Sequence record: MZ560701
From: Escherichia phage vB_EcoM_TU01
DNA length: 64,000 nucleotides
Reading direction: 5' to 3' (one strand)
Shown here: in pieces, positions 35,700 through 36,692 of the stretch
Position numbering within the stretch: the stretch's first letter is position 1
Layout: every line of letters starts with the position of its first letter
Notes under the pieces: model-generated
Databases searched by the model: none
What the model saw: the letters and a program-made list of their open reading frames with translations, nothing else
What the model was told of the DNA's origin: nothing
Translations under genes and position numbers: made by a program

Positions 35700-36692
35700 A
35701 TGTTACCTGTCGTCGGAAAACTTATTTCTCCAAAAGAACTGGCTGAGATTATTCCTTTGTCGGAAGCTTACGCATCACAAGTGGCTTCTCATCGCGAACA
35801 AGTTAATTCGATTATGAACGGTGAAGACCCACGCAAACTTATTGTTGTAGGTCCTTGTTCAATTCATGACCCTATTGCTGCTGTTGAATACGGCAAACGT
35901 CTGGCTGAACTTCAAACTCGTCTTCCTAATGTTCTGTTAGTGATGCGCGTTTATTTTGAAAAGCCTCGAACTACCGTAGGTTGGAAAGGTCTTGTAAATG
36001 ATCCATATCTTGACGGAAGTTTTGATATGAACCACGGTCTTATAGTTGCACGAACATTGTGTCGTAAACTTCTACGTATGGGACTTCCATTAGCAACTGA
36101 AGTATTAGACCCATTCACGATTAAGTATCTTTCTGGTATTTTCTCATGGGTTGCTATTGGCGCCCGTACGACTGAAAGTCAGACACATCGTGAAATTGCT
36201 TCAGGTCTACCGATGTGCGTAGGCTTCAAGAACGCAACCAATGGTTCTATTAAAGTAGCTACAGACGCGATGTATAGTGCCGCCTGGCCTCATCGGTATA
36301 TGGGTATGGACGTCGATGGTACTGTAGGCATTGTTGAAGCTGAAGGTAATCAGAATACGCATATCGTATTGCGTGGCGGGACCAACGGCCCGAACTATCA
36401 TTCTTCTGATATTCAAGAAGCTTCTAACAAAGCAAGGGCAGTAGGTCTGAATCATTATGTAATGGTTGACTGTAGCCATGCAAACGCTGATGGGCATTAT
36501 AGCAATCAAATTGGTATTGGTAAAAATTTAGCAGCTAATGATTTGGTTAAAGGAATTATGATAGAATCATTCCTACATGAAGGAAATCAAAAAATTTCTG
36601 ATAATATGTCCTATGGCGTTTCCATTACCGATGCGTGCATCAGTTGGGAACAAACTAAAGAGCTGTTAACTTATATTAATAAGGTTCAATAA
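35700..36692 (+). CDS. 3-deoxy-7-phosphoheptulonate (DAHP) synthase, class I AroG/AroF-like
   Basis: 330 aa; [80 protein letters not shown] align with E. coli AroG including the metal ligands; AAGGA RBS; stop overlaps cd start. Confidence 0.92.
   Translation: [330 protein letters not shown]

What the first reader, a model, noticed from the sequence alone, without database searches (positions are those of the whole stretch)
35700..36692. Complete class I DAHP synthase (AroG/AroF-like) gene inside a T4-type early gene cluster
Seen in sequence: a 330-aa ORF carries the hallmark class I DAHP synthase blocks ([80 protein letters not shown]), including the Cys/His/Glu/Asp metal ligands, so it looks catalytically competent. 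It sits between the pseT-side small ORFs and dCMP deaminase, has its own AAGGA RBS, and its stop overlaps the cd start (TAATG), so it is wired into the phage nucleotide-metabolism operon, not a contaminant. Its AT-rich composition resembles the surrounding phage DNA, arguing for long residence. T4 has no such gene at this locus. DAHP synthase is the first committed step of the shikimate pathway; a phage copy could redirect PEP and erythrose-4-phosphate flux or bypass host feedback inhibition. I cannot tell from the sequence whether Phe/Tyr/Trp feedback inhibition is retained.
Basis: partly seen in the sequence, partly recalled or inferred. Interest (0 to 1): 0.8.

Follow-up and report, generated by a model that had tools for sequence, protein, structure and literature searches.

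The report
Phage DAHP synthase, regulatory site remodelled
This is a real, intact phage copy of the enzyme that opens the aromatic amino-acid (shikimate) pathway; it is already annotated in well over a hundred related phage genomes, but its feedback-inhibitor site has been specifically rebuilt, so it probably runs without the host's normal brake.

Summary
Window 35700..36692 (+) encodes a 330-aa type I-alpha DAHP synthase. It scores above the NCBIfam aroFGH equivalog cut-off, keeps all metal, PEP and E4P residues, and gives a confident model (TM 0.96 to solved DAH7PS). It sits between cd.2 and cd in a Mosigvirus-like T4-type phage.

It is not host contamination. GC3 is 29% against 51% for E. 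coli aroF, and no E. coli genome matches more than 120 nt. It is under purifying selection (dN/dS about 0.15).

It is not new. PHROG 5045 covers it, 212 phage records hold a homologue, a 100% identical protein is in GenBank, and genome papers mention it. I found no experimental study.

My addition concerns regulation. The phage clade is monophyletic and AroF-like. Only five of 330 positions are fixed differences from 98 bacterial homologues, and four of these are published inhibitor-site residues (p about 1e-6): Q151K (the yeast ARO4 Q166K position), D155G, S180P and F209Y. The N-terminus is also 6-10 residues or more shorter.

The enzyme is therefore probably insensitive to Tyr, Phe and Trp. 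Its pocket could instead have been retooled for another ligand. Its physiological role remains inferred.

The parts
35690..35694 (+). Shine-Dalgarno-like AAGGA, five bases upstream of the ATG
   Evidence: Read directly from the sequence.
35700..36692 (+). Phage DAHP synthase gene (330 aa; type I-alpha, AroF-like; phrog_5045)
   Evidence: AlphaFold model pLDDT 93.4. Foldseek TM 0.96 to solved DAH7PS structures. dN/dS 0.14-0.21 between genera.
35856..35858 (+). Codon for Cys53, metal ligand (= AroG Cys61)
   Evidence: Alignment; invariant in 27/27 phage-clade and 98/98 bacterial sequences.
36477..36479 (+). Codon for His260, metal ligand (= AroG His268)
36564..36566 (+). Codon for Glu289, metal ligand (= AroG Glu302)
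36630..36632 (+). Codon for Asp311, metal ligand (= AroG Asp326)
35700..35729 (+). Shortened N-terminus. There are 52 residues before the metal Cys, against 58 or more in bacterial homologues. The segment that holds AroG D6/D7 is absent, and no beta0 strand is predicted.
   Evidence: no upstream start possible; residues 1-10 are coil.
36120..36125 (+). Codons for Ile141-Lys142, replacing the Pro-Gln of AroG 150-151 / AroF 151-152. Lys142 is at the yeast Aro4 Q166 position.
   Evidence: (ungapped residue mapping). Q is found in 98/98 bacteria and K/R in 27/27 phage-clade sequences.
36135..36137 (+). Codon for Gly146, replacing the conserved Asp (AroG D155 / AroF D156) of the inhibitor site
   Evidence: D in 96/98 bacteria, G in 26/27 phage-clade sequences. 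The residue's role is taken from PMC9529685.
36210..36212 (+). Codon for Pro171, replacing the inhibitor-contacting Ser (AroG S180 / AroF S181)
   Evidence: S in 96/98 bacteria, P in 27/27 phage-clade sequences; PMC9529685.
36297..36299 (+). Codon for Tyr200, replacing the pocket Phe (AroG F209 / AroF F210)
   Evidence: F in 98/98 bacteria, Y in 27/27 phage-clade sequences.
36339..36341 (+). Codon for Ala214, replacing an invariant Thr (AroG T223) at the end of the regulatory hairpin
   Evidence: T in 98/98 bacteria, A in 27/27 phage-clade sequences.
36690..36694 (+). TAATG: the DAHPS stop codon overlapping the cd start codon
35343..35579 (+). cd.2 homologue (DUF7320), the upstream neighbour
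   Evidence: 72% identity to RB14 cd.2.
36692..37273 (+). cd, dCMP deaminase, the downstream neighbour
   Evidence: 72% identity to RB14 cd.
33704..34603 (+). pseT, polynucleotide kinase/phosphatase; marks the start of the conserved pseT-cd interval

Best explanation
The ORF is a functional phage-borne type I-alpha DAHP synthase of AroF (Tyr-type) ancestry. It condenses PEP and erythrose-4-phosphate into DAHP. It has been resident for a long time in the pseT-cd interval of several genera of T4-like phages of Enterobacterales, and is probably transcribed with its early/middle neighbours. Unlike the host isozymes, its feedback-inhibitor site has been specifically rebuilt: Q151K, D155G, S180P, F209Y and T223A in AroG numbering, P150I, and a shortened N-terminus. 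It most likely works as a deregulated, constitutively active enzyme that keeps carbon entering the shikimate/chorismate pathway in the infected cell whatever the aromatic amino-acid levels. Shown here: family membership, an intact catalytic set, the fold, phage residence, purifying selection, and the targeted remodelling of the inhibitor site. Inferred: catalytic activity in vivo, insensitivity to Tyr/Phe/Trp, expression timing, and the benefit to the phage (supply of chorismate-derived products such as aromatic amino acids, folate precursor or quinones).
For: Family and catalysis: NCBIfam TIGR00034 428 bits (cut-off 173) and PRK12755 455 bits (cut-off 343). Four metal ligands and nine PEP/E4P residues are invariant in 27/27 phage-clade and 98/98 bacterial sequences. 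Model pLDDT 93.4 and TM 0.96 to solved DAH7PS. Residence: 212 phage records hold a homologue. The same cd.2-DAHPS-cd slot is used in Mosigvirus, Kanagawavirus, Marfavirus and (nearly) Bragavirus. GC3 is 29% against 51% for aroF, and dN/dS is 0.14-0.21. The phage clade is monophyletic and the best bacterial identity is about 53%. Deregulation: only 5 of 330 positions are fixed phage-versus-bacteria differences, and 4 of them lie in the 9 published inhibitor-site residues, Fisher p=1.3e-6. K142 maps without gaps to AroG Q151, AroF Q152 and Aro4 Q166. The Q151/Q152 and S180/S181 side chains bind the inhibitor's main chain; S180F and P150L are feedback-resistant; the C. glutamicum Q159A variant keeps more than 80% activity at 50 uM Tyr (PMC9529685). 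ARO4 Q166K is co-expressed with ARO7 T226I in yeast strains engineered to raise tyrosine supply (PMC7214760, PMC9614166, PMC6512747); that it is Tyr-feedback-resistant is my own knowledge. The N-terminus is truncated in 27/27 phage-clade sequences and cannot be extended. N-terminal engineering of DAHPS gives feedback resistance (title of Zhang et al. 2014, cited in PMC5879953).
Against: No enzyme assay exists for any member that I could find. AroF P148 (= AroG M147), D146, L179 and the Tyr-type Gly at 211 are retained, so part of the pocket persists. The remodelled loops are more conserved than the rest of the protein (92-93% against 63% pairwise identity). That fits a locked or retooled site at least as well as a simply lost one. 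Single mutants at these positions in C. glutamicum AroF (Q159A, S188F) were unstable or poorly active, so extrapolating from point mutants to a co-adapted natural enzyme is uncertain. No dedicated promoter was found and expression timing is untested. RB69 does without the gene, so it is dispensable in at least one close relative.
Confidence: 0.6

Rival explanations
1. The pocket is retooled rather than disabled. The conserved Lys142/Gly146/Pro171/Tyr200/Ala214 set forms a new allosteric site that senses a different small molecule, for example a nucleotide-pathway or phage-specific metabolite. DAHP synthesis would then be regulated, but by a new signal.
For: The replacement residues are themselves nearly invariant (26-27 of 27) across 56-98% identity. 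The two pocket loops are more conserved than the protein average and than the same loops in bacteria. The hairpin that forms the regulatory domain is retained in the model. The gene is translationally coupled to dCMP deaminase.
Against: There is no candidate ligand and no precedent that I found. The same loops are also conserved in bacteria because they adjoin the active site, so conservation need not mean ligand binding. A Gln-to-Lys change at this very position is used as a deregulating allele in yeast. The N-terminal segment that completes the site in the host enzymes is missing.
Confidence: 0.12
2. The enzyme is still feedback-inhibited by an aromatic amino acid (most likely Tyr) through the altered pocket. 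It is simply an extra copy of a regulated host-type isozyme that compensates for the shut-off of host gene expression.
For: AroF-like ancestry with the Tyr-type Gly at AroG position 211. The Pro at AroF 148, D146 and L179 are kept, and the hairpin is retained. Tyr200 and Lys142 could in principle offer new polar contacts.
Against: Both residues that bind the inhibitor's main chain (Q151/152 and S180/181) are replaced in 27/27 sequences, and Pro cannot donate the Ser hydroxyl. The N-terminal contact segment is deleted. The fixed differences concentrate in the inhibitor site with p about 1e-6, which is not expected if regulation were being preserved.
Confidence: 0.13
3. The benefit lies in substrate drain, not product supply. 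A deregulated DAHPS acts as a sink for erythrose-4-phosphate and PEP. This would pull the non-oxidative pentose-phosphate reactions towards pentose phosphates for nucleotide synthesis, or lower PEP. It concerns the physiological role and is compatible with the enzymology proposed above.
For: The gene sits in a nucleotide-metabolism neighbourhood and is coupled to cd. No other shikimate-pathway or prephenate-using gene such as cmoA is found in these phages. Established biochemistry: transketolase and transaldolase equilibria link E4P removal to pentose-phosphate formation (inference).
Against: This is purely inferential and no flux data exist. Gene position in T4-like early regions is a weak guide to function, because many unrelated small genes share these clusters.
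Confidence: 0.15
4. The segment is host DNA: an assembly chimera or a very recent capture of E. coli aroF/G/H.
For: None beyond the gene being of cellular type.
Against: No E. coli genome among 5,426 matches more than 120 nt, at 74% identity. Protein identity to AroF/G/H is only 50.5/47/43.5%. Base composition is phage-like. The 4.3-kb region is 98-99% identical and collinear in about 139 independently sequenced phage genomes.
Confidence: 0.005
5. The protein is catalytically dead or has another activity, for example a KDO8P synthase for LPS (as one genome paper loosely suggested) or a binding/decoy protein.
For: Pfam PF00793 also covers KDO8P synthases. PMC8022965 mentions LPS biosynthesis for the domain.
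Against: All DAHPS-specific catalytic residues are invariant, including the KPRTT motif and the Cys/His/Glu/Asp metal site. The only NCBIfam hits are DAHPS models, with the equivalog cut-off passed 2.5-fold. The closest structures are all DAH7PS at TM 0.96. Purifying selection is strong.
Confidence: 0.02

Closest known systems
E. coli AroF (Tyr-sensitive type I-alpha DAHP synthase; PDB 6AGM/6AGL)
   Same: Best solved-structure sequence match (E=7e-105) at 50.5% identity. It has the same fold, the same metal and substrate residues, Pro at AroF 148 and the Tyr-type Gly at AroG position 211.
   Different: The phage enzyme is 26 residues shorter: 9 fewer at the N-terminus, two internal deletions near the C-terminal third, and a shorter C-terminal tail. 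It replaces AroF P151, Q152, D156, S181, F210 and T224 with I, K, G, P, Y and A. It is AT-rich and phage-resident.
Engineered or selected feedback-resistant DAHP synthases (AroG P150L, S180F, D146N; yeast ARO4 Q166K)
   Same: The phage clade naturally carries changes at three of the same positions: AroG 150, 151 (= Aro4 166, with the identical Gln-to-Lys change) and 180.
   Different: The laboratory alleles are single substitutions in otherwise regulated enzymes. The phage enzyme combines five or six fixed changes with an N-terminal truncation, conserved over 56-98% identity. Its phenotype is untested.
phrog_5045 / GenBank 'phospho-2-dehydro-3-deoxyheptonate aldolase' of Mosigvirus and other T4-like phages (e.g. 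PhAPEC2, ST0, HX01, O157tp3/6, phiC120 ORF64, Kanagawavirus KLB31)
   Same: It is the same gene. The protein is 100% identical in PhAPEC2 and EP32B. The region is 98-99% identical at nucleotide level in about 139 genomes, and the PHROG match is full-length at 606 bits. Papers note it as a putative AMG (PMC8022965, PMC11845039).
   Different: Nothing at sequence level. Those records and papers give an annotation or a hypothesis only and do not address regulation.
Other phage auxiliary metabolic genes of central carbon metabolism (e.g. cyanophage transaldolase talC; from general knowledge)
   Same: A host-type metabolic enzyme carried by a T4-like lytic phage, presumably to redirect host flux during infection.
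   Different: The pathway differs (shikimate entry rather than the pentose-phosphate or photosynthetic pathways), the hosts are enteric, and there are no experimental data.

Membership tests
Type I-alpha DAHP synthase (AroF/AroG/AroH; NCBIfam TIGR00034, Pfam PF00793) | Sequence score above the curated family cut-offs | tested here: met
   TIGR00034 equivalog 428 bits against 173; PRK12755 455 against 343; PF00793 253 against 25.5.
Type I-alpha DAHP synthase (AroF/AroG/AroH; NCBIfam TIGR00034, Pfam PF00793) | Metal site Cys61/His268/Glu302/Asp326 (AroG numbering) | tested here: met
   C53, H260, E289 and D311; invariant in 27/27 phage-clade sequences.
Type I-alpha DAHP synthase (AroF/AroG/AroH; NCBIfam TIGR00034, Pfam PF00793) | PEP/E4P-binding residues, including the KPRTT motif (R92, K97, P98, R99, T100, A164, R165, K186, R234) | tested here: met
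   All nine are identical in the window protein and in 27/27 phage-clade sequences.
Type I-alpha DAHP synthase (AroF/AroG/AroH; NCBIfam TIGR00034, Pfam PF00793) | (beta/alpha)8 barrel with an inserted beta6a/beta6b hairpin | tested here: met
   AF2 model pLDDT 93.4 with the hairpin at E198-203/E209-214. Foldseek TM 0.96 and rmsd about 1.5 A to 4HSO, 1KFL and 1QR7.
Type I-alpha DAHP synthase (AroF/AroG/AroH; NCBIfam TIGR00034, Pfam PF00793) | DAHP synthase activity (PEP + E4P -> DAHP + Pi) | not testable with these tools
   Needs an enzyme assay or complementation of an aroF aroG aroH mutant.
Feedback-regulated isozymes specifically (AroF Tyr-, AroG Phe-, AroH Trp-sensitive) | Canonical inhibitor site: Gln151, Asp155, Ser180 and Phe209 (AroG numbering), plus the N-terminal segment of the partner subunit | tested here: not met
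   K142, G146, P171 and Y200 occupy these positions, and the N-terminus is at least 6 residues shorter. This holds in 26-27 of 27 phage-clade sequences, against 96-98 of 98 bacterial sequences that keep the canonical residues.
Feedback-regulated isozymes specifically (AroF Tyr-, AroG Phe-, AroH Trp-sensitive) | Score above the isozyme-specific NCBIfam cut-offs | tested here: not met
   AroH model 387 bits against a cut-off of 463; AroG model 363 against 568. No AroF-specific equivalog model appeared; only the PRK12755 subfamily model was passed.
Feedback-regulated isozymes specifically (AroF Tyr-, AroG Phe-, AroH Trp-sensitive) | Inhibition by Tyr, Phe or Trp | not testable with these tools
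   Needs kinetics with and without the effectors.
Phage auxiliary metabolic gene family phrog_5045 | Full-length match to the PHROG profile, and location in a phage genome | tested here: met
   606 bits, residues 1-330 on profile positions 8-337 of 341. The region is collinear at 98-99% nucleotide identity in about 139 phage genomes.
KDO8P synthase (the other branch of PF00793) | Match to KDO8PS models and KDO8PS-type active-site motifs | tested here: not met
   No KDO8PS model appears among the NCBIfam hits at E<=1e-3. A DAHPS-type KPRTT motif is present. All top structural matches are DAH7PS.

The most novel reading that the evidence does not exclude
The phage lineage has not merely lost feedback inhibition. 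It has rebuilt the allosteric pocket (Lys142, Gly146, Pro171, Tyr200 and Ala214, all nearly invariant) into a site for a different effector. Entry into the shikimate pathway would then be controlled by a phage- or nucleotide-related signal instead of aromatic amino acids. That would be a naturally re-wired allosteric enzyme carried by a virus.
Probability: 0.12. Interest if true: 0.65.

Novelty: already known. Interest (0 to 1): 0.33.

Why it matters
The gene itself is ordinary database knowledge. It is a recognised, if unstudied, auxiliary metabolic gene of many T4-like enterobacterial phages.

What could matter is the regulatory twist. If the enzyme is naturally feedback-insensitive, two things follow.
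- It would show that these phages force open the committed step of aromatic and chorismate biosynthesis in cells whose own isozymes are repressed and inhibited, as expected in amino-acid-rich habitats such as the gut. That makes the question of why a lytic phage wants chorismate or DAHP directly testable with one knockout and one enzyme assay.
- It would offer a ready-made, evolution-optimised deregulated DAHP synthase for metabolic engineering, where single-site feedback-resistant mutants often lose activity or stability (PMC9529685).

The close relative RB69 lacks the gene, which gives a natural comparison.

Tried and rejected
- **Host-DNA chimera or recent capture:** rejected. blastn against 5,426 E. 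coli genomes gave at most 120 nt at 74% identity, and composition is phage-like.
- **Start-codon artefact for the short N-terminus:** rejected. There is an in-frame stop 12 codons upstream with no alternative start, and 27 independently called homologues share the short N-terminus.
- **Remnant of T4 cd.1 in the 120-nt spacer upstream:** none found (tblastn best E=0.3, elsewhere in the window).
- **Dedicated promoter or terminator:** sigma-70-like sites are no more frequent than in shuffles and none lies just upstream. There is no + strand terminator, no late TATAAATA and no good MotA box before the gene. Nothing can be concluded about timing.
- **Link to prephenate-consuming Cx-SAM/CmoA DNA hypermodification (lead from PMC12783734):** rejected for this clade. 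tblastn with E. coli CmoA finds Erwinia jumbo, Pseudomonas and Synechococcus phages but no Escherichia, Klebsiella or Proteus T4-like phage.
- **Experimental literature on phage DAHPS:** seven of the ten full-text searches were aimed at it and found only genome-paper mentions. The yeast Aro4 structural paper could not be retrieved, so the Q166 equivalence was established from ungapped PDB-sequence matches instead.
- **My initial recollection that AroF P148L equals AroG P150:** this was wrong. PMC9529685 equates AroF P148 with AroG M147, and the phage keeps Pro there.
- **Simple decay of the regulatory elements:** not supported, because the remodelled loops are highly conserved.
- **More distant phage DAHPS as convergent evidence:** Aeromonas HJ05 and a gut-virome contig were examined. 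They also lack the canonical triad but are too divergent (35-37% identity) to interpret. The 'Acinetobacter phage' copy looks bacterial.
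Full report
**Observation**

The window has an ATG-initiated ORF at 35700..36692 on the + strand, encoding 330 aa. AAGGA lies five bases upstream of the ATG, and a TAATG stop/start overlap joins it to the next ORF. 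The ORF cannot be extended: an in-frame stop lies 12 codons upstream with no ATG, GTG or TTG in between. The window holds 688 N bases, but none falls inside this gene.

**Identity**

- Pfam assigns the protein to DAHP_synth_1 (E=4e-75).
- NCBIfam places it above the curated cut-offs of the aroFGH equivalog TIGR00034 (428 bits against 173) and of subfamily PRK12755 (455 against 343). It falls below the AroG- and AroH-specific cut-offs.
- The best solved relative by sequence is E. coli AroF, PDB 6AGM (E=7e-105).
- In an alignment with E. coli AroF/G/H and 120 database homologues, the four metal ligands are invariant in all 27 phage-clade and all 98 bacterial sequences. These are C53, H260, E289 and D311, matching AroG C61, H268, E302 and D326.
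- Eight of the nine PEP/E4P residues, including KPRTT, are also invariant in both sets. The ninth, AroG T100, is Thr in all 27 phage-clade sequences and in 94 of 98 bacterial ones, Ser in the other four.
- An AlphaFold2 model built on a 46-sequence alignment is confident (pLDDT 93.4, pTM 0.92). It superposes on solved type I-alpha DAH7PS structures with TM 0.96 and rmsd about 1.5 A.
- The KDO8P-synthase branch of the Pfam family is not supported.

**Context**

The neighbours are:

| Window coordinates | Gene |
|---|---|
| 33704-34603 | pseT |
| 34603-34794 | cd.4 homologue |
| 35007-35282 | cd.3 homologue |
| 35343-35579 | cd.2 homologue |
| 35700-36692 | DAHPS |
| 36692-37273 | cd (dCMP deaminase) |
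| 37263-37571 | 31.1-like WYL_2 protein |
| 37629-37961 | gene 31 |
| 38086-38334 | rIII |

These assignments rest. The 4.3-kb region is 98-99% identical and collinear in about 139 phage genomes of the Mosigvirus group, including ST0, HX01, PhAPEC2 and O157 typing phages 3 and 6.

T4-type phage RB14 has cd.1 in the corresponding slot, and no cd.1 remnant exists in the window. RB69, the type Mosigvirus, lacks the gene; its nucleotide similarity to the window starts exactly at the cd start codon.

More distant T4-like genera carry the gene in the same interval:
- Kanagawavirus, Entb_45 and PEi26, 77% amino-acid identity.
- Marfavirus F48, 67%.
- Bragavirus PM2, 59%, with two small ORFs between the gene and cd.

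**Not a contaminant, and functional**

- No E. coli genome among 5,426 matches more than 120 nt, at 74% identity.
- Protein identity to AroF/G/H is 50.5/47/43.5%, and the best bacterial identity is about 53%.
- GC is 41% and GC3 29%, like pseT next door, against 52% and 51% for E. coli aroF.
- Between genera, dN/dS is 0.14-0.21. The best-determined pair, Entb_45 against PEi26, gives dS 0.62 and dN/dS 0.16.
- The 27 phage-clade cluster representatives form a monophyletic group in a neighbour-joining tree, separate from all 98 bacterial sequences.

The simplest history is one old acquisition from an AroF-like donor, followed by vertical descent and occasional loss or module exchange.

**Already known**

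- PHROGs holds a full-length family, phrog_5045: 'phospho-2-dehydro-3-deoxyheptonate aldolase', category moron/AMG, matched at 606 bits.
- tblastn finds homologues in 212 phage records, 94 of them at 99% identity or more and including 100% identical proteins. Most are annotated as DAHP synthase, aldolase or AroF/AroG.
- Two genome papers mention the gene: phiC120 ORF 64 (PMC8022965) and Kanagawavirus KLB31, where it is discussed as a putative AMG (PMC11845039).
- Seven of the ten full-text searches were aimed at experimental work on a phage DAHP synthase and found none.

**What the sequence says about regulation**

A review and engineering study of DAHPS feedback resistance (PMC9529685) gives the background:
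- It lists the inhibitor-site residues. In E. coli AroF numbering these are P148, Q152, D156, L180, S181, F210, G212, I213 and Q215.
- It states that the side chains of AroG Q151/AroF Q152 and AroG S180/AroF S181 bind the main chain of Phe or Tyr.
- It reports D146N, P150L, S180F, L175D, L179A, F209A/S and V221A as feedback-resistant AroG alleles.
- It shows that C. glutamicum Q159A, the equivalent Gln, keeps more than 80% activity at 50 uM Tyr.

Against this background, the phage clade differs systematically:

| AroG position | 98 bacterial homologues | 27 phage-clade sequences |
|---|---|---|
| Gln151 | Q in 98 | K in 26, R in 1 |
| Asp155 | D in 96 | G in 26 |
| Ser180 | S in 96 | P in 27 |
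| Phe209 | F in 98 | Y in 27 |
| Thr223 | T in 98 | A in 27 |
| Pro150 | P in 88 | I in 26 |

A scan of all 330 positions looked for fixed differences, meaning at least 90% consensus in each group but a different residue. It finds only five: the first five rows of the table. Four of them lie within the nine published inhibitor-site residues (Fisher one-sided p=1.3e-6). The fifth closes the regulatory hairpin.

Ungapped matches of a 98-aa fragment to PDB sequences map phage K142 to AroG 151, AroF 152 and yeast Aro4 166. ARO4 Q166K, the identical substitution, is co-expressed with ARO7 T226I in yeast strains engineered to raise tyrosine supply (PMC7214760, PMC9614166, PMC6512747). That it is Tyr-feedback-resistant is my own knowledge.

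All 27 phage proteins also have only 48-52 residues before the metal Cys, against 58 or more in bacteria. The segment aligned with AroG D6/D7 is missing, and the model predicts no N-terminal strand. From my own knowledge, not verified here, those N-terminal residues of the partner subunit complete the Phe site in AroG, and N-terminal AroF mutants are Tyr-resistant. The library offered only the title of Zhang et al. 2014 on N-terminal engineering for feedback resistance.

**Interpretation and limits**

The concentration of the lineage's only fixed changes in the inhibitor site argues strongly that canonical Tyr/Phe/Trp inhibition has been abolished or changed.

The site has not decayed. The two pocket loops are 92-93% identical within the phage clade, against 63% for the whole protein, and are more conserved than in bacteria. 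This fits a pocket locked by its own side chains (Lys/Tyr). It is also compatible with a pocket retooled for another ligand. Part of the old pocket is retained: Pro at AroF 148, D146, L179 and the Tyr-type Gly. Only an assay can decide.

Expression is inferred. There is no convincing sigma-70, MotA-box or late promoter directly upstream and no + strand terminator. This suggests read-through transcription from upstream, with translational coupling to cd.

**Physiological role (inferred)**

A deregulated DAHPS would keep carbon entering the shikimate/chorismate pathway in infected cells whose own isozymes are repressed and feedback-inhibited. The benefit could be supply of aromatic amino acids or of other chorismate products. 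Alternatively it could be drainage of E4P and PEP.

I tested one specific idea, supply of prephenate to a phage CmoA/Cx-SAM DNA-modification system (PMC12783734), and rejected it. No T4-like phage of Escherichia, Klebsiella or Proteus has a CmoA homologue. RB69's lack of the gene shows that it is accessory.

**Verdict**

The gene is already known and annotated, so the finding is ordinary as a discovery. The sequence-based case for a naturally remodelled, probably feedback-insensitive allosteric site is the only element I did not find described. It is cheaply testable.

Noticed in passing
window, whole; e.g. ORFs 35007-35282, 36692-37273, 38086-38334: The window contains 688 ambiguous N bases. 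They produce X residues in several neighbouring ORFs, including two in cd and many in the rIII-like ORF. None lies in the DAHPS gene.
   Followed up: partly
window 36689; L005 (RB69 NC_004928, 128000-140000): RB69 lacks the DAHPS gene (cd.2 abuts cd). Its blastn similarity to the window (91.5%) begins exactly at the cd start. The pseT-cd.2 module upstream did not align at E<1e-10, which suggests a mosaic or recombination boundary at the DAHPS/cd junction.
   Followed up: partly
L007 (Proteus phage PM2) 1606-2322 and 3957-4516: In PM2 a homing endonuclease gene sits just after pseT, and two small hypothetical ORFs separate DAHPS from cd. The tight DAHPS-cd coupling seen in this window is therefore not universal.
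   Followed up: no
L008 2899-4062 (Aeromonas phage HJ05); L010 about 3001-3990 (gut-virome contig MT837410): Two very divergent phage-associated DAHPS homologues (35-37% identity) keep the metal ligands but also lack the canonical Gln/Ser/Phe inhibitor-site triad, using different residues (H/P/V and G/D/F). This may be independent loss of canonical regulation, or a different subfamily.
   Followed up: partly
L009 (CAKLQH020000056, 'Acinetobacter phage MD-2021a'); OR851216 / OR851014 ('Salmonella phage S.Kent 1-2-1'): Some records filed as phage look like bacterial DNA. The Acinetobacter contig has cobS and alpha-ribazole phosphatase next to a canonical 394-aa aroF. The 2-3 kb Salmonella 'phage' records hold a host-like aroF and a cmoA that is 94% identical to the E. 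coli gene.
   Followed up: partly
GenBank records matching window 33700-38000: The neighbours are frequently misannotated in public records: cd as 'ribD riboflavin biosynthesis protein' or 'tRNA-specific adenosine deaminase', pseT as 'zeta toxin' or 'AAA family ATPase', and the 31.1-like WYL_2 protein as 'tail fibers protein'.
   Followed up: no
window 37574-37598 (+) and 37962-37969 (+): A MotA-box-like TGCTTTA followed by a TATTAT -10 lies upstream of gene 31. A T4 late-promoter motif TATAAATA lies immediately after gene 31, upstream of the rIII-like ORF. Neither was examined further.
   Followed up: no
window 35536-35691 (+): A 51-aa GTG-initiated ORF overlaps the end of cd.2 and fills the 120-nt spacer before the DAHPS gene. 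There is no evidence that it is a gene and no similarity to T4 cd.1.
   Followed up: partly
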